Below are positions 3,861 to 59,115 of a stretch of 64,000 bases of DNA, piece by piece. Within the stretch, counting starts at the first letter, position 1. Every line of letters begins with the position of its first letter. The notes under the pieces were generated by a model, which was given only the letters and a program-made list of their open reading frames with translations, was not told where the DNA came from and searched no databases. The position numbers were made by a program, and so were the translations under genes. Source of the DNA: Spirochaetia bacterium (GTDB lineage Bacteria > Spirochaetota > Spirochaetia > CADAEX01); assembly GCA_017446885.1 (NCBI GenBank), contig JAFSOR010000021.1, positions 2,550 to 66,549 of the forward strand, read 5' to 3'.

Positions 3861-5690
3861 ATGACTATCAGCGACATCAAAAATGCAAAAATTAAAGCTT
3901 GGATCGAAGAGATTGAAAAACTGTGCACTCCCGATGCACTCCATATCTGTGACGGCACCAAGGAAGAGTACGACACCCTTATGAAGAAGTGTGTGGACTC
4001 TGGTCTTGCCACTCCTCTCAAGAAGAAACCCAACAGCTTCCTGTTTCGGTCCCTTCCTTCTGATGTAGCCCGGGTAGAGGCACGTACCTTCATCGCTTCC
4101 AGAAAAGAAGAAGATGCGGGTCCTACAAACCACTGGATCGATCCAGTGGAGCTCAAGAAGACCATGACCAAGCTTTATACAGGCTGCATGAAGGGAAGAA
4201 CAATGTATGTGATTCCTTACAGCATGGGTCCTGTTGGCTCTCCTATCTCCAAGAACGGAATCGAAATAACCGACTCTGAATACGTTGTATGCAACATGAT
4301 TATAATGACCCGTGTGGGAAAGAAAGTACTTGATGCAATTGGACCTGATGGCGATTTTGTCCCATGCCTCCACTCTGTAGGAAAGCCCCTTGCCGAAGGC
4401 GAAAGCGACCATGGCATCTGGCCATGTGCCGACATGGAGAACAAGTATATCTCCCAGTTCCCAGAAGAGCACACTATCTGGTCATATGGCTCAGGCTACG
4501 GCGGAAACGCACTTTTAGGCAAGAAGTGCTTTGCACTCCGCATTGCCACAGTTCTGGCGCGGGATGAGGGCTGGCTTGCAGAGCATATGCTTATCCTTAA
4601 GCTTACAAACCCGAAGGGCGAGGTAAAGTATGTTACAGGAGCCTTCCCATCGGCTTGCGGAAAGACCAACCTGGCCATGCTTATTCCTAAGATTCCGGGC
4701 TGGAAGGTGGAGACAATAGGCGACGACATCGCATGGATGAAGTTCGGCTCCGACGGAAGGCTCTATGCCATAAACCCAGAGGCAGGCTTCTTTGGTGTTG
4801 CACCTGGGACATCGGAAAAATCCAACAAGAATGCTCTGGAAGCAGCCAGAGAAAACGCAATATTCACAAACTGCGCCCTTACCGAAGATGGCGACATATG
4901 GTGGGAGGGAATCGGCTACCCTGCCAAGGGCGACCTTATCGACTGGAAAGGGATTAAACGCCCTGCTCTGCCCAAGGATAAATCTCCCAAGGGCGAGGAG
5001 TTTGCACACCCCAATGCACGGTTTACTGCACCGGCAAACCAGTGTCCATGTATTGCACCGGAATGGGAAGACCCCAAGGGAGTGCCGATCTCTGCATTCC
5101 TGTTCGGCGGCCGGCGCCCTTCCACAGTGCCGCTGGTACACCAGGCAAGGGACTGGAACCACGGCGTTTTCCTGGGCTCCATAGTAGGTTCCGAGGTTAC
5201 AGCAGCTGTAATATCTGACCAGGTGGGCCAGGTGCGCCGCGACCCGTTTGCCATGCTGCCATTCTGCGGCTACAACATGGGCGACTACTTCCAGCACTGG
5301 ATTAACATCGGCAAGAAATCCACAGCCGACAAGCTGCCTAAAATCTTCTATGTAAACTGGTTCCGCAAGGACGATGACGGCAACTTTATGTGGCCTGGCT
5401 ACGGCGACAACTCAAGAGTCCTGGCATGGATATTCGACCGCTGCGACGGCAAGGACAATGCTGTGGATACAGCTATAGGCTATATGCCTAAGCCTGGTGC
5501 TATTAACACAGAGGGGCTTTCCGAGCAGGATAAGGCCAATATACCGGCCATAACATCTGTTGACAAGGAAGGCTGGCTTAAGGAAATCAAAGATATCAGG
5601 GAAAACCACTATCCTAAGTTCGGCAAGCATCTGCCTAAGGAACTGGCTGACCAGCTCGATATCTTGGAGAATAACCTTAAGAATATGTGA
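3861..5690 (+). CDS. pckG: Phosphoenolpyruvate carboxykinase (GTP)
   Basis: 609 aa. GTP-PEPCK kinase-1a loop FPSACGKTN and conserved FGGRRP region. Confidence 0.9.
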
Positions 5691-6889: not shown

Positions 6890-7336
6890 ATGTATATGAC
6901 AAACAATTTAAATTCTGTAATTGTAGAGGGAAATCTTACAAAGGACGCCGAATTTGATTCGACACAGAAAGGGACTGGATTCTGCACTTTCTCAGTGGCT
7001 ACCAACCGGTATTTCAAATCTGGCGAGGAGATTCAGCACGAAGTTTCGTACTTTGATGTTGAGGCTTGGGGCAAACTGGCAGACAGCTGCCGCGGCATGC
7101 TTACAAAAGGCTTTGGCGTGCGTGTTGTGGGGCGGCTTAAGCAGGACAGGTGGAACAGCGACGACGGCAAGGCCAAAAGCCGGGTCAAGATTGTGGCAGA
7201 GCACATAGAGGCAAAGCCTGTGACAGCCACCGAAAAAGAGGTAGCAGCCGATTCCGGTGCAGATGAAACAAAACCCGAGGCAAAGCCGGCACGCCAGAAG
7301 AAGGCGCAGAAGGAGAAAGAGCTTATCATGGCATGA
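6890..7336 (+). CDS. ssb: Single-stranded DNA-binding protein paralog lacking the acidic C-terminal tail (SsbB-like)
   Basis: 148 aa. OB-fold SSB N-terminus (NSVIVEGNLTKDAEF...VSYFDVEAWGKLA...QDRW). C-terminus is K/A/Q-rich (ARQKKAQKEKELIMA) with no DDDIPF-type tip. Confidence 0.75.
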   Translation: MYMTNNLNSVIVEGNLTKDAEFDSTQKGTGFCTFSVATNRYFKSGEEIQHEVSYFDVEAWGKLADSCRGMLTKGFGVRVVGRLKQDRWNSDDGKAKSRVKIVAEHIEAKPVTATEKEVAADSGADETKPEAKPARQKKAQKEKELIMA

Positions 7337-46843: not shown

Positions 46844-46900
46844 ATCATGCTCCTTGACATTGTTTATAATGTCCTGTTATATTTAAAACGAGGTTGATAA

Positions 46901-47026
46901 ATGGGAATTTTTATAATCCTGTTGATATTCATTTTCTCACTCGGTCCACTTGTTGCATTTTTAGTGTGGGGCTATAAATGCTGGTCAAAAGAGTATGATA
47001 AAATAATTAGTTATATAAAAAAATAA
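46901..47026 (+). CDS. Candidate small hydrophobic peptide (41 aa) on opposite strand between tape measure and chaperone genes
   Basis: ATG 46901 preceded by AGGT. Encodes MGIFIILLIFIFSLGPLVAFLVWGYKCWSKEYDKIISYIKK (one TM helix + basic tail). Lies in a locally AT-rich 190-bp gap. Confidence 0.25.
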   Translation: MGIFIILLIFIFSLGPLVAFLVWGYKCWSKEYDKIISYIKK

Positions 47027-47034
47027 ATGTATCA

Positions 47035-47682
47035 TTAACCCTTTCCACCGTTCAACCAGTTCTCAAATTCCGCCAGTGCCTCATCATCTCCAGAATCATC
47101 GGCAGGCAGTTCCCACGCCGCACGCAGTTTCTCCATATGCCGTGTGTACCTGTCAGGTTTCCTGCCGTCACTCTCCCATAGCCTATATCCAATAATCTCA
47201 TTCAGCTTTGTGTCATGCAGTCCCCGGAAAAGCGACTGGAACTTGTACCAGTGCATATCGCTTTCCACTAAATCTATACCGTACTGCTCAAGGAACGCTG
47301 CAAAGATGTAGTCTGCATCTATGGCATAATCCACCGTCTTTTCATCACCAGAGGAACCTCTGGGTAGTTCCTGCGGTGGATTGCAGAAAGCGGTAAGTGC
47401 CTTGAACCCTGCAATCCTGTCAACAGGAATGTTATCCTGGTCACTGTACATGAAGTCAAAGTCGGCAAGCGTCGCATCTTTATCAGATGACAGCTCCAGA
47501 AACCTGATCCAGTATTTAAATGATGTGTGTACATAATATAAAATGCCTTCCACCTCAACGGCAGAAGGCAGTACAGCTTTCTTCAAGTCAATCACGGCAT
47601 CACTCCGCAGGGGTGAAAGTACCGTCGCTGAATGTGCCTGCAATGAATGTAGGAACTCCAGCACCTGAAAGGGTGATTGCAC
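47035..47682 (-). CDS. Phage protein at tail-assembly-chaperone position
   Basis: 215 aa, acidic C-terminus. Sits between major tail and tape measure genes. Overlaps the major tail gene by ~80 nt, so the true start may be internal. Confidence 0.35.
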   Translation of the reverse strand: MQSPFQVLEFLHSLQAHSATVLSPLRSDAVIDLKKAVLPSAVEVEGILYYVHTSFKYWIRFLELSSDKDATLADFDFMYSDQDNIPVDRIAGFKALTAFCNPPQELPRGSSGDEKTVDYAIDADYIFAAFLEQYGIDLVESDMHWYKFQSLFRGLHDTKLNEIIGYRLWESDGRKPDRYTRHMEKLRAAWELPADDSGDDEALAEFENWLNGGKG

Positions 47683-49676: not shown

Positions 49677-50564
49677 TTACGCCTTATGATGCAGGTAGAT
49701 ACCCGCAGTCTTGTTCTCATAGACATCAGCAAGTCCATATTCACGGAAGTTGAAGATCCAAGCATCTGCATCGCTGTTGTCATCCGGGGAGATAGCCTTG
49801 TTCACACCGTGCTTAGTGTACTGCATGACTGCGGACTTCTCGGCAATAAGGAAGTTGATGTCCTTACCGGCTTCATCCTGTGCACCTGCAGACACGTGCT
49901 TTCTATAACCTCCATCCTCCTCTCCGGCGGTGGTGCCGTCCAGAAGGTCGATTGCAGTGTAGAACCGTACCTGTGGAACTTCCACAATACCAGCGAACTT
50001 AGCAAGAATCTCTGTGCTCTTGTTGGTGTCCACGCCCCTTACTGCGGTCATAAGGGTTGGTGTAATAAACAGATACCTCTTGTCGACTGGAACTTCTGCC
50101 TCATCCATTGCGGCACTTGCAGCACGAAGGGCGTCAAGCACGTCTGTGCCTGTAGAAAGTGTACCTGATACCTTTGTCCCAGCAGCACCAGCATATTTTG
50201 CAAAACGGAAGGCATCCTGCTCTGGTGCAACCTTAACCCTGATGAACTCGGAGGAAAGCTTGCCGAAAGCAAGACCGGCGGTCTCCTCGTTGTCCATGGA
50301 ATCTACAGTGAACTTTCTTCCACGGTCATAGTTGAATGCCACAGTCTCATATGTCATATTGACATTACCTTTCACGTAACCGCTGTTCCTGTCATAGTCT
50401 CCCAGCCCGTCCATGCTGAGCTTAGGGATGACTATCTCGTTGGTGTTTGCTCCTGCTCTTGCGAGTGTTGCATCACTTTCGAGAACAGCTGTCTTTGACT
50501 CCAGCTTATAGACCTCATCAAGGAGATCTATGTACTTCTTGAATTTAGCAATCTGATTTGCCAT
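49677..50564 (-). CDS. Major capsid protein
   Basis: 295 aa. Position after scaffold gene. Sequence typical of major capsid proteins of SPP1-like phages of Gram-positive bacteria (...VAFNYDRGRKFTVDSMDNEETAGLAFG...). Confidence 0.75.
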   Translation of the reverse strand: MANQIAKFKKYIDLLDEVYKLESKTAVLESDATLARAGANTNEIVIPKLSMDGLGDYDRNSGYVKGNVNMTYETVAFNYDRGRKFTVDSMDNEETAGLAFGKLSSEFIRVKVAPEQDAFRFAKYAGAAGTKVSGTLSTGTDVLDALRAASAAMDEAEVPVDKRYLFITPTLMTAVRGVDTNKSTEILAKFAGIVEVPQVRFYTAIDLLDGTTAGEEDGGYRKHVSAGAQDEAGKDINFLIAEKSAVMQYTKHGVNKAISPDDNSDADAWIFNFREYGLADVYENKTAGIYLHHKA

Positions 50565-50567
50565 CTT

Positions 50568-51113
50568 TTACTCCTTTTTTGGTGGCAGGCCCATAATGGC
50601 TCTTGCCTGTGCATCATCGTCGGCATTACCACCTTTGCCGCCTTTCATTGGAGATACCACTGGCGGGGTAGGTGCTGTTTCATCCTTAAGGATGTCCGAC
50701 TTGTCTTTTACCAGCTCGTCAAAGAGATCCTTGATTGCCTTTCCTGCATTCTTTTCATCAGCCAGCATATCCGCAAGCTGCTTCTTGATTGCATCCTTGG
50801 TTATGCTGTTGACAAACTTCTTGTCATAAAGAAAATCTCCGACCTTTGCCGAACGCTCCATTTCAGCGATTTTCGCCAAATTTTCCTTCTGTGAGTTTTC
50901 GTACTGCTCCTTCCACTTCTTGACATCTTCCTTTGCCTGGTCGTAGTCTTTGAATTTCTCAATGGTCTTGTTGGCTTCCTCAAGCTGCTTCTTGAGGTCA
51001 TCCCTGTCGGCGTATTTAGCCTTGGTTGCCTCAATGTCCTTGCCATTCTCGGCCATGATCTTGTCAACTACATCCTTTTCAAGTTTCAGGTTCTCCAAAA
51101 ATTCACGTGTCAT
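50568..51113 (-). CDS. Scaffolding protein
   Basis: 181 aa highly charged helical protein (K/E/D-rich). Directly upstream of the capsid gene. Confidence 0.65.
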   Translation of the reverse strand: MTREFLENLKLEKDVVDKIMAENGKDIEATKAKYADRDDLKKQLEEANKTIEKFKDYDQAKEDVKKWKEQYENSQKENLAKIAEMERSAKVGDFLYDKKFVNSITKDAIKKQLADMLADEKNAGKAIKDLFDELVKDKSDILKDETAPTPPVVSPMKGGKGGNADDDAQARAIMGLPPKKE

Positions 51114-51212: not shown

Positions 51213-51648
51213 TCACCTGAGCATATACCACGCACCGGCAAAACCACCGGCGGCGCCAAGTACAGCCCCGATGCACCAGGCTTTAACTTTTCCCACACGG
51301 GCTTCTTTTTTCTGCTCTTTCCAGAATGTCGAGAGCCTGGTCAAGCTGTTCTGAAGCTCTCTTGTTTCTGTCTGCGATTTCTCCAGCTGCAACCTGGCAT
51401 TCTCCAGCTCGCTTTTCTGCCCGTTCAACTGACTCCGCAGCTTTTCTATCTGCTTCTCCTGTTCGTCCAGCTCTTTCTTTGCTGTCTGCAATGACATCTT
51501 CAGCGCTGTCGCCTCTGTATCCGTAAGAACTACGTCGGCCCAGCATATAGGCGGACACACAGAACAGAGCACCAGCCATATAAGAAGCATGGTCTTTGAT
51601 CCATTTCCAAAACTTTTTGACAACATTCATGTATTCTCCCTTATGCAC
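51213..51648 (-). CDS. Double-coded region: two near-completely overlapping minus-strand ORFs (137 aa coiled-coil + C-terminal TM; 121/115 aa N-terminal TM + charged tail)
   Basis: Frame A 51213-51626: signal-like N-terminus MLLIWLVLCSVC, heptad-like coiled coil, C-terminal TM AWCIGAVLGAAGGFAGAWYML. Frame B 51283-51630/51648: N-terminal TM ASYMAGALFCVSAYML plus R/A/E-rich tail. Its internal ATG at 51630 forms an ATGA overlap with the holin-like gene stop and has an AAGGGAGAA RBS. Confidence 0.3.
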
Positions 51649-51815
51649 TTGCCCAGTATCATGCCAGCACCCGTATAAAGCATGGTCTCCCAGCCCGGCT
51701 TGCCGATGAAGAAGCCGATTACTGCAACGGCCAGAAGCATAGCCCCGGTAACCTTTGCTCCGTCCAAGTCAAAGTCTTTGTCACCCAGTGTTGAAGTAAG
51801 CAAGTTATGCTTCAT
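51627..51815 (-). CDS. Holin-like small membrane protein
   Basis: 62 aa with two hydrophobic segments (GAMLLAVAVIGFFIG; MLYTGAGMILG) and charged C-terminus. Immediately downstream of the CHAP gene. Confidence 0.45.
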   Translation of the reverse strand: MKHNLLTSTLGDKDFDLDGAKVTGAMLLAVAVIGFFIGKPGWETMLYTGAGMILGKCIRENT

Positions 51816-52222
51816 TTCCGCCTCCGGAGCAGTCCCAGACAGTTGTGCTTGTCACGCAGGGCAAGTTTGGCCCCGTCCTGCCTGCAGCCGTCCTGCTCGA
51901 ATACAAGCATCTTGTCAGCATTCACCCAGCAAAGGAATATTGCCACATGTCCATAACGGTTGGTCGCTGTCCTGTCCCATACTGCAACATCTCCATATCT
52001 GGCAGTTATGGTGTTCTCTGTTGTGAAATATTTCTGCTCCAGCGGCATCTTAGAGTAGTTGATATACAAATCCCGTGCACCTTCCACCGCTCCTGTATGC
52101 TCCCTGATCTCCAGAACCTCTTTGACATACTGCCTGAAAAGGTCAACGCACTGGGCACCGAAGGCACCGTCAAAATCTACTTTCTTACCCAGATACTTGT
52201 TTATAAACTCAATGAAATTCAT
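51812..52222 (-). CDS. CHAP domain peptidase (endolysin candidate)
   Basis: 136 aa. Catalytic Cys context FGAQCVDLFRQY and His context GHVAIF, typical of CHAP amidase/peptidase domains. Confidence 0.7.
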   Translation of the reverse strand: MNFIEFINKYLGKKVDFDGAFGAQCVDLFRQYVKEVLEIREHTGAVEGARDLYINYSKMPLEQKYFTTENTITARYGDVAVWDRTATNRYGHVAIFLCWVNADKMLVFEQDGCRQDGAKLALRDKHNCLGLLRRRK

Positions 52223-52491
52223 TCATCTTCCTCCAAGTCTGTAATACGGTGGTTGGCAACCTTTGCCTTCTCCTCCAGGACTGCTGTCCGCTGCTCCAGC
52301 TTGTAGGTTCTTTCAATCACGCTGTTATGCTTGTCCACACGGTCCGAAAGCGTCTCTATCTCCTGCTTGATAAGTGCCAGCTTGACAGCCATCTCCTCCG
52401 CAGCCCGCCTGTTCTGGTATGTGTTTGTGATAACCACCGCAAGCACAGTGAAAGCCCCGGTAATCAATGCTCCGATAATTGATGTATCCAT
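52219..52491 (-). CDS. Small membrane-anchored coiled-coil protein (holin/antiholin-like)
   Basis: 90 aa. N-terminal TM IIGALITGAFTVLAVVI then coiled coil. Precedes CHAP with a 4-nt overlap. Confidence 0.4.
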   Translation of the reverse strand: MDTSIIGALITGAFTVLAVVITNTYQNRRAAEEMAVKLALIKQEIETLSDRVDKHNSVIERTYKLEQRTAVLEEKAKVANHRITDLEEDE

Positions 52492-52505
52492 GTGCAGCCC
52501 CTATA

Positions 52506-52958
52506 TCAAGTTCTGTTCCAGCTGGTGCCGTACTTGTCGATGATAATCTTGAAGTCCTCCAGGTCATGAGGGCGGATATAATATTTCTCGCTGCCGTCAT
52601 CCTCATATTCAATGCCTACATGCAAGAGCTCGTGGAACAGCAGAATCCGGATCTGATCTTCTGTAAAATATTTGATATTTGGGAGAAACAGTGTAATTGT
52701 GAAGTCATAGTTTATTGCCCATTGATTCTTGGTCTGGACTTTCTCGCACTGTCCGTTTACGATAATGTCCTTGCCTTTCTTTTTGGCAAAACCGCTTTCA
52801 AGGTATGCAATCCTTGCAGACGAATTTCTGATATATGCCAGTTCCGGCTCGGTCGCTATAAGATTTTCTGCAATCTTCTTATACTGTTCATTGATTTTGC
52901 GTGAATCCATATCTGTACTCCTTACAGATATAGTCATTTGAGGAATTTTGAGGGACAA
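52506..52958 (-). CDS. Putative phage zinc metallopeptidase (HExxH)
   Basis: 150 aa with LLFHELLHVG motif (HExxH). Small phage-associated metallopeptidase-like family. Confidence 0.45.
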   Translation of the reverse strand: MSLKIPQMTISVRSTDMDSRKINEQYKKIAENLIATEPELAYIRNSSARIAYLESGFAKKKGKDIIVNGQCEKVQTKNQWAINYDFTITLFLPNIKYFTEDQIRILLFHELLHVGIEYEDDGSEKYYIRPHDLEDFKIIIDKYGTSWNRT

Positions 52959-52997
52959 AAAACCGCCAGACGGCGGTTCGTTAAAATAATAGATTAA

Positions 52998-53441
52998 TTA
53001 TTGTTCTGGGTTTGCTTGGCTCTTCTGTATTCTTTCTTTACGATTGCTGTTCATGCCATAAATAAAAGCGCCTATCATAGTAGCAGCTGCGCCGATGATA
53101 ACTCCAAATCCTCCGGCATCTTTTCCGTTGAACACCAAAGCAAAGCCCCCAATAATACATAACAGACACAAACAACAGGCAATAATTTGGCCATTTCGGG
53201 CTCTTTTTATTCCAGAGAAAATAACAGCCTTCTCAAGTTCCATACGATGTGCAACTTGTTTTTCATATGAGCTCAATAAACGCTCTGTAATTCCAGAATG
53301 TAAATGTTCCAGACGTTCAAGTTCATCCGCTGGAGGAAGAATACCATGGCGCTCGCTTAAACTGATTTCCATGGCATCTCCTTTACCTGGGACATGCAGA
53401 GACCGTTGTGTTATTTTTTTGGTTTTAGGCATTAGCGACAA
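52998..53441 (-). CDS. DUF2335-like phage-associated membrane protein
   Basis: 147 aa. ILPPADELERLEHLHSGITERLL...HRMELEK resembles the DUF2335 signature. Two C-terminal TM segments. Confidence 0.45.
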   Translation of the reverse strand: MSLMPKTKKITQRSLHVPGKGDAMEISLSERHGILPPADELERLEHLHSGITERLLSSYEKQVAHRMELEKAVIFSGIKRARNGQIIACCLCLLCIIGGFALVFNGKDAGGFGVIIGAAATMIGAFIYGMNSNRKERIQKSQANPEQ

Positions 53442-53619
53442 CCTGGTTAAAAGCTACTTTTGCATCTTCTTTAAGTGCTTGCGCATCAGCTCTAAGTGCC
53501 CTTTCGTCTGCCTTTGCTTCGTTAGAGGATGTATTATATTCATTAGAAATACCAAATAAATCAATAACACTCATAATCCCATCGACATATGTTGGGTTTG
53601 CAAATAAATATGTGGACAT
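53425..53619 (-). CDS. Small hypothetical protein
   Basis: 64 aa ORF with Ala/Lys/Glu-rich helical C-terminus. Start at the edge of the AT-rich block. Confidence 0.3.
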   Translation of the reverse strand: MSTYLFANPTYVDGIMSVIDLFGISNEYNTSSNEAKADERALRADAQALKEDAKVAFNQVVANA

Positions 53620-53788
53620 TTTTCTCCTCTGAAGATAATTTACCTTTTTTCTTTCTTAATTGTCAACCTATGCTAAACCAACGCTTGCAAATATTTAAAG
53701 AAACGCTTATTTATCTGACTCGTCATCGGGAAAGAAATGATCAATGATTTTGAAATCATCATCTATTTTAATCATGAACTTTTTATCT

Positions 53789-54028
53789 TTAGTATTTATA
53801 TTTATATGAATAAAACTTAGACCAATGACATTTTATTTTCTGCCCTAAATCGTTAATAAGAATAAAATTTAAAGTATAATCTTCAAATCCTAAAATAACA
53901 TATTCCTTCCCTGGAGTTAAATTAAATTTATCCTTATCGATGTCGCTGGAAAATGTAGCCTTTACAATAGCGGCAATATCAATTAAGCGGTCTAGTCTGA
54001 ATTTCATAGTTTCTAATCTCCTTCTCAA
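53789..54028 (-). CDS. Small hypothetical protein in AT-rich cassette (likely starts at internal ATG 54007)
   Basis: Internal ATG preceded by GAAGGAGA RBS gives MKFRLDRLIDIAAIVKATF... (72 aa). AT-rich, atypical composition relative to the phage. Confidence 0.35.
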   Translation of the reverse strand: MRRRLETMKFRLDRLIDIAAIVKATFSSDIDKDKFNLTPGKEYVILGFEDYTLNFILINDLGQKIKCHWSKFYSYKYKY

Positions 54029-54214
54029 TTAAACTCATTACTGCTCTTGCAACTCGTCTAGGACTTTCGCTGCTAAAATACTCACTTACAGCTTCTGCAA
54101 AAAATTCTTGAGCATTTTTTGTCGCATATTCACTTAATTCGTTTTTTATTATTTCACGATTTGAAATAAATTTAAAATCTGTTTTAAGTATTGGAATACA
54201 TCATAATCTCCTCT
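54029..54214 (-). pseudogene. Small frameshifted ORF in AT-rich cassette
   Basis: Strong AGGAG-N5-ATGATG start gives MMYSNT* (stop after 6 codons). The +1 frame continues ...KTDFKFISNREIIKNELSEYATKNAQEFFAEAVSEYFSSESPRRVARAVMSLIEKEIRNYEIQTRPLN. Shift lies in an A-run. Confidence 0.3.
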
Positions 54215-54236
54215 GGTGTTTATTCCGTTTTGTGGG

Positions 54237-54656
54237 TCATAAATCGATAATATATTTTTTTATTAGACAATCCGCAAAAACACTTTCATAACTAAAAATA
54301 ATTGCAAGTTCATTATCCTCTTCCCTTAATATTGAAACATATTCATCAAAATCTGTTATTGTTGGCAGAACTTTGAAAAGTTTTTCTGCCATTTCCTTTT
54401 CAAACCCTGCAAAAAAGAATGGAGGTGGATATTTATCAATATTTCCAGCGATTGAGTTTCTAATAGGAATATATATATTGTCCAGTTTTTCAATTTCCTT
54501 TTCAAGTACTGTTCCTTTTAGGCTTTCTTGCAAGCGGCGTCTGGCTTTATTATATTCTGCCCAATTATGGAAAAACTTATATAAATCTGTGCCTTTCCAT
54601 TGCGAATCTACCAGTTTTTTCTTTTCTTCTGTCATTTCTTTACTCCACAATTTCAC
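54237..54656 (-). CDS. Hypothetical protein immediately downstream of the ADPRT domain (candidate cognate immunity/antidote protein)
   Basis: 139 aa, AT-rich. Start overlaps the stop of the gp7-ADPRT gene. No motif recognised. Confidence 0.4.
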   Translation of the reverse strand: MKLWSKEMTEEKKKLVDSQWKGTDLYKFFHNWAEYNKARRRLQESLKGTVLEKEIEKLDNIYIPIRNSIAGNIDKYPPPFFFAGFEKEMAEKLFKVLPTITDFDEYVSILREEDNELAIIFSYESVFADCLIKKYIIDL

Positions 54657-56442
54657 ATTCTAAAATAACCCTTTGCGGCCAAGATGTTACATTTTCAACC
54701 CTTGAATCAAGTATTTTTAATTTTGTATTAAGACCAAAGATTATTTCACTTTCTCTTATGTTTGTCGTTTTATATGCATGAGTTCCTTCGGGAACCCTAA
54801 TATTAAGTTTAACATTGCGATTTGTAAAAACATTTTTTTCCGCGACGCCTGACGTACTCATAAACCCCTTTTCTATGAAGATTCTACCTTTATCTATTTT
54901 ACCTGGCAACTTTGTAAAAGCGTTCTGCCACTTTAATTTATTATCATCTTGCGGCCATTCAACTCCTGCAATATAAGGTAAAGCATCAGCATCTACATTT
55001 CTTGTTACAATTATGTTTTCATTTATATTATTTCTCTTTATGATATTTTGTAAAGTTTCAACAACTTTTTTTTGACTGTCACTCAATTCTTCTTTCATTC
55101 GTAGACATTCATTAATATGCTTTGCATTTGTAGACGCTATATAACCACCCATACCAAATTTTCCATAAACAATTGAATGTTCTTCTTTAGTTATAGGATG
55201 TTTTATTTCTTTAAATTCTTCTTTGGTTAGTGTTTTATATTCAATTTTTGGTTTTTCTGGCTCAATAATCTTTGTTTTCTCAATTATAGAAGTCGCCGAG
55301 GGTTTTGCGGTTGGTGGTTTCAGGAATCTCGGCTGTATATCATTGCCCACATGCTCCCGGGTGCTGTCACGCTCTATGCCTGTCTGTTTGGTGAAATCCC
55401 TTGCCTTTGCCTGCCATTCTCCGATTTTCTGCCTTGCTTTGGTGTTGTCGAGTCCTGCGGCATCCTGTGTAAGTGCAACACGCTTGTAGAGTCTGATATT
55501 CCGCTCTATGCTACGTAATGCCTGCTCGCCCTCATACCGGGTGAAGGTTTTCCCGTTATAGGTGACTTTCTCACTGGCCATCTGGTCAAGCTCTTTCTCT
55601 GTATATTCTTTCTCCATGCCCTCAAAATATGGGTAGAATGAGTGCCGGCAGTTTATGCCGCATATTCCGGTAGGACTTCCAAGTCCGCACACACTGAAAG
55701 GGCGGTAGTTTGGATTCTTCCCACTTCTGGAGAATATCTGTCCCTGCCATTCCTCATGTTCAGGCCTTGCACCCAGATGCGCCGATGTCTCCACAAGGTC
55801 ACATTCTACAGCATCGCAGTTGTTCAGTGTCATCTGTGCGGCTGTCTGGTTTATGCCAGTCAGTATGTTCATTCTTACGGCGGATTCAATACTTCGCCGT
55901 ACAGGCTTTCCGTTCTCGTACTGAACGGTAGTGACTCCGGCATCTGCCAGATCGTCAACGGCGGTCTTGATTGCTGCATCATATGTGAAAGCCCCGCTTC
56001 TGACCTTGGAGACGGCTCTGTTTGCTTCCCGGACAAAAGCCTCCTGACTTGTCGCCGCTGTGGTAAGAGTAAGCCGGGAAAGGTCGCTGTAGCACTTCTG
56101 GACAGTCGCCAGTATCTCCTGTGCGGTAGGTGTGCTTACAGTCCGCCCAAGTGCATCAAGGAATATCTTGTTGTCGTTCTGGGTGTTCTTATCCAGTGCT
56201 TCCTGTACTACTGCCTTGACTGCTGCGGCAACATTCTTGTCATATCTCCGGATTTTCTTCTCAATATCTGCCTTAAGGCTCCCGGATTCCGCCAGTATCT
56301 GCGCCTGCCACCTGTCCATATCAGACGCCTTTCCGAGTCTGGCTATACGTCTTGCCATGTCACGCAGTATGTCGGTCTCGAGCTGTGAGTAAATATCTAC
56401 AAGTTCATCTGACAACCCAGCAAGATAACGGGGTGGAAGCAT
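54640..56442 (-). CDS. Phage minor head protein (SPP1 gp7 / Mu F-like) with C-terminal ADP-ribosyltransferase toxin domain
   Basis: 600 aa. The N-terminal 400 aa resemble gp7-family head morphogenesis proteins. A Pro/Lys-rich linker follows. The C-terminal ~200 aa carry R-S-E class ADPRT motifs: YGKFGMGGYIASTNAKHINECLR, VTRNV (Arg), FMSTSGV (STS), ESEIIF (ExE). Confidence 0.8.
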   Translation of the reverse strand: MLPPRYLAGLSDELVDIYSQLETDILRDMARRIARLGKASDMDRWQAQILAESGSLKADIEKKIRRYDKNVAAAVKAVVQEALDKNTQNDNKIFLDALGRTVSTPTAQEILATVQKCYSDLSRLTLTTAATSQEAFVREANRAVSKVRSGAFTYDAAIKTAVDDLADAGVTTVQYENGKPVRRSIESAVRMNILTGINQTAAQMTLNNCDAVECDLVETSAHLGARPEHEEWQGQIFSRSGKNPNYRPFSVCGLGSPTGICGINCRHSFYPYFEGMEKEYTEKELDQMASEKVTYNGKTFTRYEGEQALRSIERNIRLYKRVALTQDAAGLDNTKARQKIGEWQAKARDFTKQTGIERDSTREHVGNDIQPRFLKPPTAKPSATSIIEKTKIIEPEKPKIEYKTLTKEEFKEIKHPITKEEHSIVYGKFGMGGYIASTNAKHINECLRMKEELSDSQKKVVETLQNIIKRNNINENIIVTRNVDADALPYIAGVEWPQDDNKLKWQNAFTKLPGKIDKGRIFIEKGFMSTSGVAEKNVFTNRNVKLNIRVPEGTHAYKTTNIRESEIIFGLNTKLKILDSRVENVTSWPQRVILECEIVE

Positions 56443-56458: not shown

Positions 56459-57853
56459 TCAGAAATTGAACGGTGACGCTGCCACAGGCTCTTCCGGCAC
56501 ATTCGCCTTTGCCTGCTCCTCGTCCTCTCCGAAGAAATCTTTTCTGTATTCCCACTTGTTCTTCACACCCTGGCTTACTTCCTGCAGTGCCATCTGTTTA
56601 GCCGCTGTCATGTCCTTACGCGTTGTGTCATCGTTCCAGATTATGCGTATATCGCTGTTCCCACTTCCAAGGCGGTATGCTGCCGCCATGTGTGCGAATA
56701 CCGATGCACATGCATGGTATTTTGCTTCAATCTCATCTTCAATCTTGTCAACGATTGCGTACAGTTCCTGCCTGCCGCCGGTGTACTGCGTCGCTGTCTG
56801 TATCTGGCTTTCCATGTCGCTGATTGTGCCTTTCCCGATATTACAGGTAAGCTCAATGCGCCTGAAAATCTGTTGCAGCATCTCATTCTGCTGTGTAGTC
56901 CTTAATGCAGGGGAGTGTTCAACAATCTTCTTGCCATCTGTGCTACCGTCACCCTCAACTTTGACAATCAGCTTGTTAAGCTTAGGTGTCAGCTCCGACT
57001 TGGTGACAGATCCGTCACGTCTCTGCCGTCTCTGGAACATATCCCTGTCCGCGAAGACAATAAGCTCTCCAGCTTCCTGCTCCCACTTCATGCGTGCATA
57101 CTGTTCATCTGCATCTCTGATAAGGTCTTCTGCACCAGCTATAATAGCCACAGGTACTTTTGATCCGTCAATCTTATTGACAGAATGATTCCTGAACTCA
57201 ATTATCATAGGCTGCTTGACACCATGCCATTCATAAGCATGAGTTAGTTCTGCGGTATGTCTGCAATCAGCAAGAGAAGCCTTTGACAGGACACCGCCAT
57301 TGTATCTGTAAAGCTCACATTCAACTGAATGAGTCCCGGCCGTGTAGCGGTGACGTTCTGCAAGCAGGAACTTCTTGTTGCCATCATCTATCTGCTTTAG
57401 CAGTAATGCCTCTGTGAGTGTTCCGTCAAAGTCATAGCTTACAGGCAGGTAGTTGCCGAGTGGAAGTAACTCATACTGCAACTTGCCGTTGCTGTATACA
57501 GGACGTAAAAGACAGCTTCCGAGCAATGTTATATAATCAACCACGGCGTCAACATTTTTGTTCAAATGCTCCATGACAGATTTTATAGCTTCATTGTCAA
57601 CTTCAATTCCAATCTCACGAGATACCATTGTATCAAGCCGTCCTGCAATCTGGGCAAGAACACCGCATGACGGTACCTTGTCATTCCATGGTGCGACTCC
57701 TGCCATCATGTCATTCCAAAGACTTATTGCCCTGTACATCTCGGTTGAAATGTTTGTTTCTACACCTGTTATCTGTTCGATGGTGTAGTTGCGGAATAGA
57801 TTCAGAATATTCATGAAGAAACTCCTTAATCTCTCAAACATAATTGTCTCCAT
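56459..57853 (-). CDS. Portal protein (SPP1 gp6-like)
   Basis: 464 aa, between TerL and minor head protein. Portal-like sequence. Confidence 0.8.
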   Translation of the reverse strand: METIMFERLRSFFMNILNLFRNYTIEQITGVETNISTEMYRAISLWNDMMAGVAPWNDKVPSCGVLAQIAGRLDTMVSREIGIEVDNEAIKSVMEHLNKNVDAVVDYITLLGSCLLRPVYSNGKLQYELLPLGNYLPVSYDFDGTLTEALLLKQIDDGNKKFLLAERHRYTAGTHSVECELYRYNGGVLSKASLADCRHTAELTHAYEWHGVKQPMIIEFRNHSVNKIDGSKVPVAIIAGAEDLIRDADEQYARMKWEQEAGELIVFADRDMFQRRQRRDGSVTKSELTPKLNKLIVKVEGDGSTDGKKIVEHSPALRTTQQNEMLQQIFRRIELTCNIGKGTISDMESQIQTATQYTGGRQELYAIVDKIEDEIEAKYHACASVFAHMAAAYRLGSGNSDIRIIWNDDTTRKDMTAAKQMALQEVSQGVKNKWEYRKDFFGEDEEQAKANVPEEPVAASPFNF

Positions 57854-57864
57854 CTATATAGTCA

Positions 57865-59115
57865 TTATTGGCCCCGACGCCGCCATACTTCCTCCAGGGC
57901 ATAACGTACAGCAGCCATCGAATGGTCAGGCTGCCCCTGCGGGTATCCGGTCAGGATCTCTCCAGTCCTCTTGTCCATCTCATATTCATAAAGAGAAAAC
58001 TCATCCGCGGCGTTTGGACAGCGTTCCGGATCTACCACTATCTTGTTCAGCTGCTGCAGCCACTTGAAGCCGGCATCCAGGGAGCCGGGTCCCTTAATTG
58101 CCCCGCGGATATTCCAACCCCACGTGTGGAAATCTGCCACGCTCTTGTTCTCTGCAGAGTCGGCAGTAATCCTGGATGACAGATCAAGCTTCTCTTTCCC
58201 CATGTGATTCTTCAGCTTCTCCGAAGCCTCCCAGTTGCCGTGCTTGTACAGGGTCAGCTCTGAGAATATATAGAGAGTCCTAGTCTTCATGTCATAGCTC
58301 ATGGCGTTGTACCTGAACGGATCCGGATAATAACCCCAGTCTATGCCATGATATAGCCATTCGAAGCTGGTAATCTCTTCGTCAGTTATCGGCCGGAGCT
58401 CGATATTCTCGAAGATATTAAGACCCGTTCCTGTAGGCTCGCCCAGAAAGATATTCCTGTATGCCCTCGGGTTGCGGCGTCTCATCTCCTCGGCCTCGTG
58501 CAGGAAGGCTTCTCCCAGCCATTCCCTTGGCACGCTCCTATAGTCAGACACATGGACATACTCGTCTGAATCAGGATGTCTGAGCCTGTCATTGCACCAG
58601 TTCCTGGCAGAGCTGGGAGGGTTGAAGGATTGGAAAACAAAGAATCGGCTTCCACCTCGCATAGTGGAGAGCTTGACAGTCTCCACATCGTTGGCCGTGA
58701 ACTCTGTAAGCTCCTCGAACCAGGTTATGGCAGTGTACCCTATAAGAGTCTTTATTGATTTAAGCCTGAGTGGATCGTTGGAACCGCGGAAAAAGATTGT
58801 CTGTCCGGTCGGTCTGAATGTGGCCTGGAGTGGTGACAGCGTGAAGTTCCACAGATGTGATACACCCAGTTTCTCAACAGCCCATCTTATCTGAGTATAA
58901 ACAGAATCCCTCAGGGTTTTGTCCACCTTACGCAGGCATACGGCGTTAAATTCCCTGTTCTGCATCATGAGGATGATTATTGCCAGGCTTATGAATGAGC
59001 TCTTGCAGCTTCCACGGCCTCCTGCTTCGGTGAACTTGGTATATTCTCCAGAAAGCACCTTTCGGAAGGTCTCCTTGAATGACTGCGGGAAAAGTGTACT
59101 TGTATGGATCTCCAT
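57865..59115 (-). CDS. terL: Terminase large subunit
   Basis: 416 aa. Walker A-like AGGRGSCKS near the N-terminus. C-terminal nuclease region with acidic motifs. PBSX/Terminase_3-like. Confidence 0.85.
   Translation of the reverse strand: MEIHTSTLFPQSFKETFRKVLSGEYTKFTEAGGRGSCKSSFISLAIIILMMQNREFNAVCLRKVDKTLRDSVYTQIRWAVEKLGVSHLWNFTLSPLQATFRPTGQTIFFRGSNDPLRLKSIKTLIGYTAITWFEELTEFTANDVETVKLSTMRGGSRFFVFQSFNPPSSARNWCNDRLRHPDSDEYVHVSDYRSVPREWLGEAFLHEAEEMRRRNPRAYRNIFLGEPTGTGLNIFENIELRPITDEEITSFEWLYHGIDWGYYPDPFRYNAMSYDMKTRTLYIFSELTLYKHGNWEASEKLKNHMGKEKLDLSSRITADSAENKSVADFHTWGWNIRGAIKGPGSLDAGFKWLQQLNKIVVDPERCPNAADEFSLYEYEMDKRTGEILTGYPQGQPDHSMAAVRYALEEVWRRRGQ

What the first reader, a model, noticed from the sequence alone, without database searches (positions are those of the whole stretch)
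53640..54656. AT-rich small-gene cassette downstream of the ADPRT domain: candidate immunity gene plus orphan/degraded small ORFs
A 139-aa gene starts inside the last codons of the ADPRT gene, the classic toxin-immunity coupling. It is followed by a ~75-aa ORF broken by a frameshift in an A-run (strong AGGAG-N5-ATGATG start, then stop after 6 codons, continuing in +1). A 72-aa ORF with its own RBS comes next. All lie in the same anomalously AT-rich block (~1.7 kb) as the toxin domain. This resembles polymorphic-toxin loci with cognate and orphan immunity genes, here embedded inside a phage head-gene cluster.
Basis: inference. Interest (0 to 1): 0.55.

Follow-up and report, generated by a model that had tools for sequence, protein, structure and literature searches.

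The report
Phage capsid toxin, antidote, displaced remnant
A prophage of a rumen spirochaete has an ADP-ribosylating toxin domain fused to a capsid protein, a probable antidote gene right behind it, and then the leftover tail of an older, displaced toxin with its own small gene; this is a known kind of swappable "polymorphic toxin" locus, not a broken gene.

Summary
All genes lie on the minus strand. The 600-aa gene (54640..56442) is a MuF-type minor capsid protein (PF06152) next to the portal gene. It carries a C3-like ADP-ribosyltransferase at its C-terminus with R481, S529-T530-S531 and E564-x-E566 intact. The next gene is real but is 132 aa, not 139. It starts at ATG 54635, 4 nt after the toxin stop, with GGAG inside the toxin's last codons. 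Its only relative among 1.84 billion representative proteins (55% identical) also follows a homologous ADPRT tail (63% identical), so the pair co-varies.

The "frameshifted ~75-aa ORF" is not a broken gene. A 539-nt module is 99% identical in other contigs and ends exactly at 54179. What follows is the start-less last ~66 codons of a zinc-metallopeptidase toxin domain (EFFAEAVSE present, HExxH absent). This domain type ends MuF proteins of other phages. It overlaps the 72-aa ORF, an ORFan and candidate orphan immunity gene. Related Treponema phages carry many alternative C-terminal domains, each with its own small partner gene.

Verdict: a MuF polymorphic toxin locus with a displaced toxin remnant. 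It is a new member of a known kind. Immunity function is inferred, not shown.

The parts
54640..56442 (-). MuF-type minor capsid protein 2 fused to a C-terminal ADP-ribosyltransferase (600 aa): the toxin gene
   Evidence: Pfam Phage_min_cap2 aa 2-351 (E 4e-90) and ADPrib_exo_Tox aa 408-594 (E 1e-17). phrog_581 minor head protein. The portal gene (phrog_533, E 8.5e-78) lies directly upstream at 56459..57853.
55345..55362 (-). Conserved hinge motif TREHVG (aa 361-366). The C-terminal domains of relatives diverge after it. GC drops about 45 nt downstream, at about 55300.
   Evidence: Relatives read TRE[HY][VI]G or AREY[VI]G and then have unrelated C-termini. GC profile and coordinates.
54661..55221 (-). 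C3-like ADPRT domain with catalytic R481 (VTRNV), S529-T530-S531 and E564-S565-E566
   Evidence: phmmer against PDB: best hit C3larvin 4tr5 (E 3.6e-5), with the R, STS and (Q/E)xE positions aligned. Residue numbers. The nearest phage relatives are Streptococcus prophage minor capsid proteins, 33% identical.
54179..54717 (-). 539-nt module shared at 99% with other contigs. It comprises the last 25 ADPRT codons, the 132-aa gene and a 58-nt 3' flank. Homology stops exactly at 54179.
   Evidence: blastn against L010/L011/L024/L085. Of the 5 differences, 1 is in the 399-nt gene, 1 (synonymous) is in the ADPRT tail and 3 are in the 58-nt flank.
54237..54635 (-). 132-aa gene, the candidate cognate immunity (antidote) protein. 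The alternative GTG start at 54656 gives the 139-aa ORF.
   Evidence: GGAG at 54643..54646, 7 nt before the ATG and 4 nt after the toxin stop. One relative, P0002, at 55% identity and E 1e-39, sits behind a homologous ADPRT tail. No hit in Pfam, PHROG, NCBIfam or PADLOC. AF2 gives seven helices, pLDDT 76.6, with no PDB fold match.
54184..54214 (-). AGAGGAG plus the mini-ORF ATGATGTATTCCAATACTTAA. This is part of the module's 3' flank, not a gene start.
   Evidence: The same mini-ORF with the same stop is present in L010, where the SD reads AAAGGAA (2 of the 5 differences). There it is followed by a different toxin tail in a different frame.
53979..54178 (-). Start-less 3' remnant (about 66 codons plus TGA) of a displaced zincin (MtfA/anthrax-LF-like) toxin domain. 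It contains EFFAEAVSE and lacks HExxH.
   Evidence: phrog_324 'head morphogenesis' positions 563-610 of 624 (E 1.3e-5) and phrog_21401 positions 513-563 of 566 (E 6.9e-5). Peptidase_M90 positions 188-230 of 243 and ATLF positions 150-178 of 193. tblastn to the last ~55 aa of Clostridium phage phiCT19406A gp34, which reads HEMGH...EFLAEAVSE. No start codon.
53789..54007 (-). 72-aa ORF overlapping the remnant's last 29 nt, the candidate orphan immunity gene of the displaced zincin domain
   Evidence: AAGGAG at 54018..54023. Called as a gene in 8 contigs. ORFan: it finds only itself among 5.8 billion clusters. Its position mirrors the small genes that overlap zincin C-termini in L007, L065 and phiCT19406A. 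Coding status is unproven.
53620..53788 (-). AT-rich non-coding spacer ending the block, with a sigma-70-like promoter (TTGACA-18-TAAATT, 53666..53637) ahead of the next gene pair
52998..53619 (-). 64-aa gene (53425..53619) overlapping a DUF2335 membrane-protein gene (52998..53432). These are the next accessory genes of the variable region and are not part of the toxin modules.
   Evidence: Pfam DUF2335 (E 5e-10) and phrog_3996. Gene calls.

Best explanation
This is a MuF-family polymorphic toxin locus in a prophage of an uncultured rumen Treponema-like spirochaete.

Shown. The minor capsid (MuF2) protein next to the portal gene carries a C3-like ADP-ribosyltransferase with an intact catalytic triad. 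It is followed at 4 nt by a 132-aa all-helical protein, and this pair recurs and co-varies in a second lineage. The C-terminal domain plus partner gene is an AT-rich foreign module, bounded at about 55300 and exactly at 54179. Immediately behind it lie the last ~66 codons of a zincin toxin domain without a start codon, overlapped by a 72-aa ORF.

Inferred. The ADPRT is packed into the capsid through its MuF domain and released into the next host with the DNA. The 132-aa protein is translated together with it and binds and blocks it in the producing or lysogenic cell, acting as an immunity protein. An earlier MuF-zincin toxin was overwritten when the ADPRT/132 module recombined in. This left a silent toxin tail and its former immunity gene (the 72-aa ORF) as an orphan module, as in CDI and Rhs loci.
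For: - Domain architecture and portal adjacency.
- Catalytic R481, STS 529-531 and E564xE566 aligned to C3larvin.
- Sharp GC step at about 55300, with GC 0.27-0.31 across the CT, the 132-aa gene, the remnant and the 72-aa ORF.
- SD and ATG geometry and the gene calls.
- The only relative of the 132-aa protein (P0002, 55%) lies directly behind a 63%-identical ADPRT tail in L022.
- Fewer substitutions in the 132-aa gene (1 in 399 nt) than in its 3' flank (3 in 58 nt), Fisher p = 0.007.
- The remnant matches only the extreme C-terminal ends of head-morphogenesis, pilot and zincin profiles and proteins.
- MuF2-zincin plus an overlapping ~75-aa gene exists in Treponema phages L007 and L065.
- The same module 3' end (…CTTAAAACAG) is joined in L010 to a different displaced unit: the last 30 codons of a papain-like CT (20/30 identical to L006) plus its 73-aa partner (59% identical to L006's). 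That tail is in another frame.
- Relatives's genome loci and one search's 21 viral-contig loci show at least 6 CT types, each with its own small, often ATGA-overlapping partner; there are also short toxin-less forms.
- Streptococcus phage Javan206 has the same layout, a MuF-ADPRT followed by a 69-aa gene after 4 nt.
- Literature: MuF2 = PF06152; 14% of MuF toxins are ADPRTs and 20% are metallopeptidases; 89% are followed by an ORF of <150 aa (PMC5576092). MuF toxin immunity has been shown experimentally for Apk2-Tis1/Aph1 (PMC10083569).
Against: - No experiment supports toxicity or neutralisation.
- The 132-aa protein has no known immunity domain or fold, and its family has only two members.
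- All copies of this phage are about 100% identical over the 3.2 kb compared, so there is no within-lineage evolutionary signal.
- The zincin assignment rests on weak similarity (E 1e-5 to 4e-3, about 33% identity) and no close intact parent was found.
- The 72-aa ORF is an ORFan whose length alone is not significant.
- Some capsid-delivered ADPRTs, such as T4 Alt, act without an immunity partner.
- The identical 3' boundary of the module in two contexts is not explained by ordinary illegitimate recombination.
Confidence: 0.6

Rival explanations
1. The 132-aa protein is a partner of the ADPRT but not an inhibitor. It could be a chaperone or packaging adaptor that keeps the toxin domain soluble or loads it into the procapsid. 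It could also be a co-injected accessory factor.
For: It is an all-helical small protein with a long helical hairpin and a faint WXG100-like hit (E 0.084). Its co-variation with the ADPRT fits any physically interacting partner.
Against: It lies downstream of the toxin and is translationally coupled, which is the usual place of immunity genes (PMC5576092). Each CT type in the family has its own unrelated small partner, as expected for specific inhibitors. The partner genes of two CT types recur in repeat-bounded segments that hold only short tails of the toxin genes. However, those segments are not understood.
Confidence: 0.2
2. There was no in-situ displacement. The whole AT-rich block (ADPRT, 132-aa gene, zincin tail, 72-aa ORF) was imported in one event from a donor that already carried the orphan module. 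Alternatively, the ADPRT is a host-takeover effector (like T4 Alt) and the small ORFs are unrelated morons.
For: GC is uniformly low from 53620 to 55300. No relative with an intact MuF2-zincin of this lineage was found. The region between the MuF gene and the PhageMetallopep gene is a general cargo site.
Against: In L010 the same ADPRT/132 module, with the same last nucleotide, is joined to a different displaced tail plus partner. The module and the vestige behind it are therefore separable units. The ADPRT-132 pairing recurs in L022.
Confidence: 0.15
3. One reading: a ~75-aa gene starting at AGGAG-ATGATG is broken by a frameshift in the A-run (or read by programmed +1 slippage) and represents a degraded immunity gene.
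For: A good SD-like AGAGGAG lies 3 nt before ATGATG, with an open +1 frame of 73 codons behind it.
Against: The ATGATG…TAA mini-ORF, with its stop, is conserved in L010/L011/L024/L085 but is followed there by unrelated sequence in frame +2. Its SD is mutated to AAAGGAA. The downstream frame matches only the C-terminal end of large zincin or head-morphogenesis proteins. The sequence is identical in at least 6 independent assemblies, which argues against a sequencing error.
Confidence: 0.03

Closest known systems
MuF polymorphic toxins of temperate phages (Jamet et al. 2017, PMC5576092), including the MuF-ADPRTs EFV toxin and Bxa
   Same: An N-terminal MuF2 (PF06152) domain encoded right after the portal gene, a C-terminal ADPRT toxin domain, a small ORF of <150 aa immediately downstream, and a prophage context.
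   Different: The host is a spirochaete, whereas MuF toxins and MuF2 were reported almost only from Firmicutes and Actinobacteria. The partner protein belongs to a new two-member family. The locus also holds a displaced toxin tail plus a second small ORF, and the word 'orphan' does not occur in the main text of that paper.
Orphan CT/immunity modules downstream of cdiA-cdiI and rhs loci (CDI/Rhs systems; my knowledge, cited as ref. 3 in PMC5576092)
   Same: A 5'-truncated, start-less toxin C-terminus followed by an intact small ORF, sitting directly behind the active toxin-immunity pair. It is generated by replacement of the C-terminal module after a conserved hinge.
   Different: The delivery domain is a phage capsid protein, not a secretion-system substrate. 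The hinge is TRE[HY][VI]G rather than VENN or PxxxxDPxGL. Only one orphan unit is present, and expression of the orphan ORF is untested.
Apk2-Tis1/Aph1 of Bacteroides caccae prophage (PMC10083569)
   Same: A MuF-fused toxin with downstream immunity genes. It is the experimental precedent that such downstream ORFs neutralise the MuF toxin.
   Different: That toxin is a (p)ppApp synthetase. Its immunity proteins are a Tis1-like binder and a hydrolase, neither related to the 132-aa protein.
C3-like ADP-ribosyltransferases (C3larvin 4tr5, C3 exoenzymes) and phage T4 Alt
   Same: The R-S-E catalytic architecture. T4 Alt is the precedent for a capsid-packaged ADPRT injected with the DNA (my knowledge; T4 is cited in PMC5576092).
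   Different: The sequence is only about 20-30% identical and has ExE rather than the QxE of C3. The domain is fused to MuF, not free. Alt has no known immunity partner.
Zincin domains of the MtfA (Peptidase_M90) / anthrax lethal factor (ATLF) type at the C-terminus of head-morphogenesis proteins (phrog_324, Clostridium phage phiCT19406A gp34)
   Same: The remnant aligns to the last helices, including the E-F-[FL]-A-E motif that supplies the third zinc ligand. That role of the motif is from my knowledge of LF and MtfA.
   Different: The HExxH helix and everything upstream are missing and there is no start codon. It cannot be an active peptidase.

Membership tests
MuF polymorphic toxin (PMC5576092) | N-terminal MuF domain (PF04233, PF06152, MuF3 or MuF4) | tested here: met
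   PF06152 aa 2-351, E 4e-90, 302.8 bits against a cut-off of 26.3.
MuF polymorphic toxin (PMC5576092) | Gene immediately downstream of the portal gene in the head/packaging module | tested here: met
   Portal (phrog_533, E 8.5e-78) at 56459..57853 and terminase at 57865..59115, with scaffold and major head genes downstream.
MuF polymorphic toxin (PMC5576092) | C-terminal extension with a toxin domain also found in other toxin families | tested here: met
   PF03496 ADPrib_exo_Tox aa 408-594, E 1e-17. C3larvin alignment with R, STS and ExE.
MuF polymorphic toxin (PMC5576092) | Small ORF (<150 aa) immediately downstream, the putative immunity gene | tested here: met
   132-aa gene 4 nt after the stop.
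MuF polymorphic toxin (PMC5576092) | Encoded by a temperate phage or prophage | tested here: inconclusive
   The phage module lies next to chromosomal genes in the window: the PEPCK-like gene at 3861..5690 is homologous to L055. No integrase or attachment site was sought.
MuF polymorphic toxin (PMC5576092) | Toxicity of the C-terminal domain and its neutralisation by the downstream protein | not testable with these tools
   Needs co-expression and binding experiments.
Orphan toxin-CT/immunity module (CDI/Rhs type) | 5'-truncated toxin C-terminus without a start codon or delivery domain, homologous to the ends of full-length toxins | tested here: met
   No start codon. It matches only the C-terminal ends of profiles and proteins. 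The similarity is weak (best E 1.3e-5).
Orphan toxin-CT/immunity module (CDI/Rhs type) | Intact small ORF following or overlapping the truncated CT, located directly behind the active toxin-immunity pair | tested here: met
   The 72-aa ORF overlaps the remnant by 29 nt and starts 229 nt after the 132-aa gene. That it encodes a protein is not shown.
Orphan toxin-CT/immunity module (CDI/Rhs type) | The orphan immunity gene protects against the corresponding full-length toxin | not testable with these tools
   No intact parent toxin was identified, and an experiment would be needed.
Zincin metallopeptidase (M90 / ATLF-like), for the remnant | HExxH zinc-binding helix plus a downstream Glu ligand | tested here: not met
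   Only EFFAEAVSE is present. There is no HExxH in the 73-codon frame. It is therefore a vestige, not a member with activity.
C3-like / R-S-E ADP-ribosyltransferase | Catalytic Arg, Ser-Thr-Ser and (Q/E)-x-E motifs in order | tested here: met
   R481, S529-T530-S531 and E564-S565-E566.
Integron attC site / CRISPR repeat (for the palindromic repeats that bound copies of the 132-aa gene in L010 and L021; outside the window) | attC: 57-141 bp with R''(RYYYAAC)…R'(GTTRRRY) and an intI nearby. CRISPR: identical repeats at regular ~60-70 nt period next to cas genes. | tested here: inconclusive
   The repeat has a 26-nt perfect palindromic core with variable outer 5-mers and a spacing of 213-1491 nt. 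It is unlike the 63-68-bp T. denticola attC sites and no intI was seen. Two copies lie 12 nt behind type II cas2-cas1 in L042, but no cas9 and no regular array is present. The repeat is absent from the window.

The most novel reading that the evidence does not exclude
The ADPRT/132 unit would be a discrete mobile cassette with a fixed 3' end (…CTTAAAAC-AG), not a by-product of sloppy recombination. In related Treponema chromosomes, gene-sized pieces of these phages are stored between palindromic repeats, two copies of which abut a type II cas1-cas2 pair. Three of the seven inter-repeat segments bounded by the eight repeats of the L010 array carry MuF-toxin partner genes. Both known members of the 132-aa family have such a copy. 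These arrays would then be an integron-like or CRISPR-derived 'bank' that captures phage antidote genes, giving the bacterium immunity to capsid-delivered toxins.
Probability: 0.1. Interest if true: 0.8.

Novelty: new member of a known kind. Interest (0 to 1): 0.4.

Why it matters
The locus extends MuF polymorphic toxins to spirochaete phages of the rumen. It provides a new, testable ADPRT-partner pair from a two-member protein family. It also shows, with a nucleotide-exact junction, that phage MuF toxin loci swap C-terminal domains and leave orphan toxin-tail/immunity vestiges. This behaviour is well documented for CDI and Rhs systems, and the founding MuF paper does not use the term 'orphan'. 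For annotation, it warns that 'frameshifted small ORFs' behind toxin genes can be displaced toxin ends. The role of capsid-delivered toxins in phage biology is still open, and a matched toxin/antidote pair from a phage found in at least six independent assemblies is useful material for studying it.

Tried and rejected
- **Searches for relatives of the three downstream ORFs.** The 132-aa protein found only its own 99% cluster in the word-indexed search and one distant relative by full HMMER. The 73-aa remnant found no candidate. The 72-aa ORF found only itself, and a viral-contig scan found none. tblastn of all queries against the Treponema and IMG/VR loci fetched found nothing beyond L010/L011 and the L002/L077 ADPRT.
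- **Family libraries.** Pfam, PHROG, NCBIfam and PADLOC gave nothing for the 132-, 72- and 64-aa proteins.
- **Other scans.** Megablast of the 5.5-kb region against isolated phages gave no match. Rfam found nothing and no terminator was found.
- **Orphan-immunity argument, withdrawn.** I first read L010 and L021 as 'orphan immunity genes retained by selection'. I withdrew that argument for two reasons. The copies are about 99% identical to phage DNA, so they are too young to show selection. Their segments are bounded by an unexplained palindromic repeat that also bounds arbitrary chromosomal fragments.
- **Repeat heptamer.** I tested whether the end heptamer (K)TAAAAC is enriched in the window. 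It is not: 9 found against 13.6 expected.
- **attC comparison.** Comparison with T. denticola attC sites showed no resemblance in length or sequence.
Full report
**Setting.** All genes of the finding are on the minus strand. They lie inside a phage head/packaging module: terminase large subunit (57865..59115), portal (56459..57853, phrog_533, E 8.5e-78), a 600-aa gene (54640..56442), and further down the scaffold (50568..51113) and major head protein (49677..50564). The left 35 kb of the window looks chromosomal. The same phage occurs at about 100% identity over 3.2 kb in at least six independent assemblies. These include a 'Spirochaetia bacterium' rumen MAG, GCA_017458505.1. The N-terminal domain's relatives are Treponema prophages and IMG/VR contigs.

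**The toxin gene.** The 600-aa protein is Phage_min_cap2 (PF06152, aa 2-351, E 4e-90) fused to ADPrib_exo_Tox (aa 408-594, E 1e-17). PF06152 is the 'MuF2' domain of the MuF polymorphic toxins described by Jamet et al. (PMC5576092). The closest solved structure to the C-terminal domain is C3larvin (E 3.6e-5). The alignment places R481 (VTRNV), S529-T530-S531 and E564-S565-E566 on the catalytic R, STS and (Q/E)xE positions. GC falls from 0.53 to 0.33 within 60 nt at about nt 55300 (aa ~381). That point is 15 residues after a hinge motif, TREHVG (aa 361-366). The hinge is conserved in relatives, and their C-termini become unrelated after it.

**The 139-aa ORF is a 132-aa gene.** The GTG ORF exists, but the likely start is ATG 54635. 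GGAG (54646..54643) lies 7 nt upstream inside the toxin's last codons, and the ATG is 4 nt after the TAA. Gene callers chose 132 aa in all contigs. The homologue P0002 begins MTETKK right after TAATAA. An ORF this long arises by chance in 0.3% of simulations.

The protein has no Pfam, PHROG, NCBIfam or PADLOC match. AlphaFold2 with a three-sequence alignment gives a seven-helix protein (pLDDT 76.6, pTM 0.70) with no PDB fold match. A full HMMER pass over 1.84 billion representatives found one relative, P0002 (55% identical, E 1e-39).

In contig L022, P0002 lies directly behind an ADPRT C-terminus homologous to the window's (61/97 identical), including STS and RESEIIFGL. Between the window and the 99%-identical copy in L010, the 399-nt gene has one (conservative) change and the 58-nt flank behind it has three (Fisher p = 0.007).

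**The 'frameshifted ORF' is a recombination junction.** A 539-nt stretch (54717..54179) is 99% identical in L010, L011, L024 and L085. It comprises the last 25 ADPRT codons, the 132-aa gene and 58 nt that include AGAGGAG-ATGATGTATTCCAATACTTAA-AACAG. The identity ends exactly at 54179.

In those contigs the same mini-ORF has the same stop and an SD mutated to AAAGGAA. It is followed by the last 30 codons of a papain-like toxin domain (20/30 identical to the L006 C-terminus) and that domain's 73-aa partner (59% identical to L006's). That tail is in frame +2 relative to the ATG, whereas in the window the downstream frame is +1. The mini-ORF is therefore the 3' flank of the ADPRT/132 module, not the start of what follows.

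**What follows in the window.** The sequence 54178..53979 is 66 codons plus TGA and has no start codon. It matches only the extreme C-terminal ends of larger proteins:
- phrog_324 'head morphogenesis', positions 563-610 of 624 (E 1.3e-5);
- phrog_21401, positions 513-563 of 566 (E 6.9e-5);
- Peptidase_M90, positions 188-230 of 243, and ATLF, positions 150-178 of 193;
- by tblastn, the last ~55 residues of Clostridium phage phiCT19406A gp34 and of Streptococcus phage IPP26's Mu-F-like protein.

gp34 reads …HEMGH…EFLAEAVSE…. The remnant has EFFAEAVSE but no HExxH. Treponema phages L007 and L065 carry MuF2-zincin proteins ending …EFFAETFA…, each overlapped (ATGA) by a ~75-aa gene. The remnant is therefore the silent tail of a displaced MuF-zincin toxin.

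**The 72-aa ORF.** It starts 29 nt before the remnant's stop, which is the usual position of an immunity gene. It has AAGGAG 10 nt upstream and is called in every contig. It is an ORFan, and its length alone is unremarkable in this AT-rich DNA (11% of simulations). I read it as the orphan partner of the displaced zincin domain, with moderate confidence.

**Family context.** One search's genome loci and one search's 21 IMG/VR loci show the MuF2 N-domain joined after the hinge to several alternative C-termini:
- two kinds of ADPRT;
- two kinds of cysteine protease;
- zincin;
- an REase-like domain;
- other domains;
- or nothing at all (short forms).

Nearly every toxin type has its own small downstream gene, often overlapping the toxin stop. 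Streptococcus phage Javan206, whose minor capsid protein is among the nearest isolated-phage relatives of the ADPRT domain (33% identity), has a 69-aa gene 4 nt after the MuF-ADPRT stop. This is the signature of a polymorphic toxin system.

**Mechanism.** The architecture, the pair co-variation and the junction are shown. The following steps are inferred. The MuF domain takes the ADPRT into the capsid via the portal, by analogy with SPP1 gp7, and the ADPRT enters the next host with the DNA. This is the hypothesis of PMC5576092, and T4 Alt is the precedent. The 132-aa protein, co-translated with the toxin, blocks it in the producer. The precedent is Apk2-Tis1/Aph1 (PMC10083569). An ADPRT/132 module from a low-GC pool replaced most of a resident zincin domain and left an orphan unit behind.

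**Unexplained side finding.** The copies of the 132-aa gene outside phage context sit between palindromic repeats:
- In L010/L011/L024/L085 the repeat has the core ACGACCTTCCGATTTCGG[A/C]AGGTCGT, with 8 copies spaced 213-1491 nt.
- In L021 a diverged version of the repeat flanks P0002 tightly.

The repeat is absent from the window. Other inter-repeat segments include:
- further pieces 95-99% identical to this prophage;
- a second papain-toxin partner gene;
- fragments of chromosomal genes (esterase; methylase; rplF next to PAP2; a truncated binding protein next to PEPCK).

Two copies lie 12 nt behind type II cas2-cas1 in L042, with no cas9 beside them. The array order is identical in four assemblies, one of them MEGAHIT k141.

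I cannot tell whether these are CRISPR-derived, integron-like or REP-like elements, or junctions of rearrangement. I therefore do not use those copies as evidence of selection on 'orphan immunity genes'. I use them only for the junction, which lies inside one contiguous segment.

**Verdict.** The locus is a MuF polymorphic toxin-immunity locus with a displaced toxin remnant. It is a new member of a known kind and of moderate interest.

Noticed in passing
L010 1-4491, L011, L024 5637-9880, L085, L021 110-637, L042 122-383, L028 124-1161, L055 4137-4172 (all outside the window): A palindromic repeat (CCTAAACGACCTTCCGATTTCGG[A/C]AGGTCGTAAAAC, with variable outer 5-mers) bounds 0.18-1.5-kb segments. 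The segments are pieces of this prophage family (95-99% identical to window 54179-54717, 52855-52979 and 46816-47187) and of chromosomal genes. Two copies sit 12 nt behind type II cas2-cas1 with no cas9 beside them. The nature of the repeat (CRISPR-derived, integron-like, REP-like or rearrangement scar) is unresolved.
   Followed up: partly
L010 160-1044 and 2154-2438; L021 147-600: Three of the seven inter-repeat segments bounded by the eight repeats of the L010 array carry MuF-toxin partner genes (132 aa, 73 aa, 74 aa). Both known members of the 132-aa family have a copy in such a segment. This looks like enrichment for antidote genes.
   Followed up: partly
window 46901-47026 (+): A 41-aa hydrophobic ORF on the opposite strand lies between the Gp15-like chaperone gene and the tape-measure gene, in an AT-rich patch. 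The same piece is one of the repeat-bounded segments in L010/L024/L085.
   Followed up: partly
window 51213-52958 (-): Lysis and accessory genes sit inside the head module, between the MuF gene and the scaffold gene: PhageMetallopep, a 90-aa phrog_1863 protein, a CHAP endolysin and small membrane ORFs. A comparable set of lysis and small membrane genes occupies this position in Treponema prophages L002 and L004.
   Followed up: no
window 53637-53666 (-) and 52998-53619 (-): A near-consensus sigma-70-like promoter (TTGACA-18-TAAATT) plus AGAGGAG lies ahead of a 64-aa gene. That gene overlaps a DUF2335 membrane-protein gene by 8 nt. This looks like an independently transcribed accessory pair.
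   Followed up: no
L065 ~5000-5010, L068 ~5190, L007 ~7150-7210: Several relatives have the MuF2 gene interrupted at or just after the TRE[HY][VI]G hinge. L065 has a stop codon in place of the hinge Gly, with the zincin domain continuing in frame. L068 has a stop 37 aa later. L007 has a frameshift in the zincin domain. This could be decay, or regulated read-through that makes short and long forms.
   Followed up: no
window 54181-54187 (-) versus the repeat ends in L010: The ADPRT/132 module ends with TTAAAAC-AG in both contexts where it is found. The heptamer resembles the conserved GTAAAAC end of the palindromic repeat. The motif is not enriched in the window (9 found against 13.6 expected), so this may be coincidence.
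   Followed up: partly
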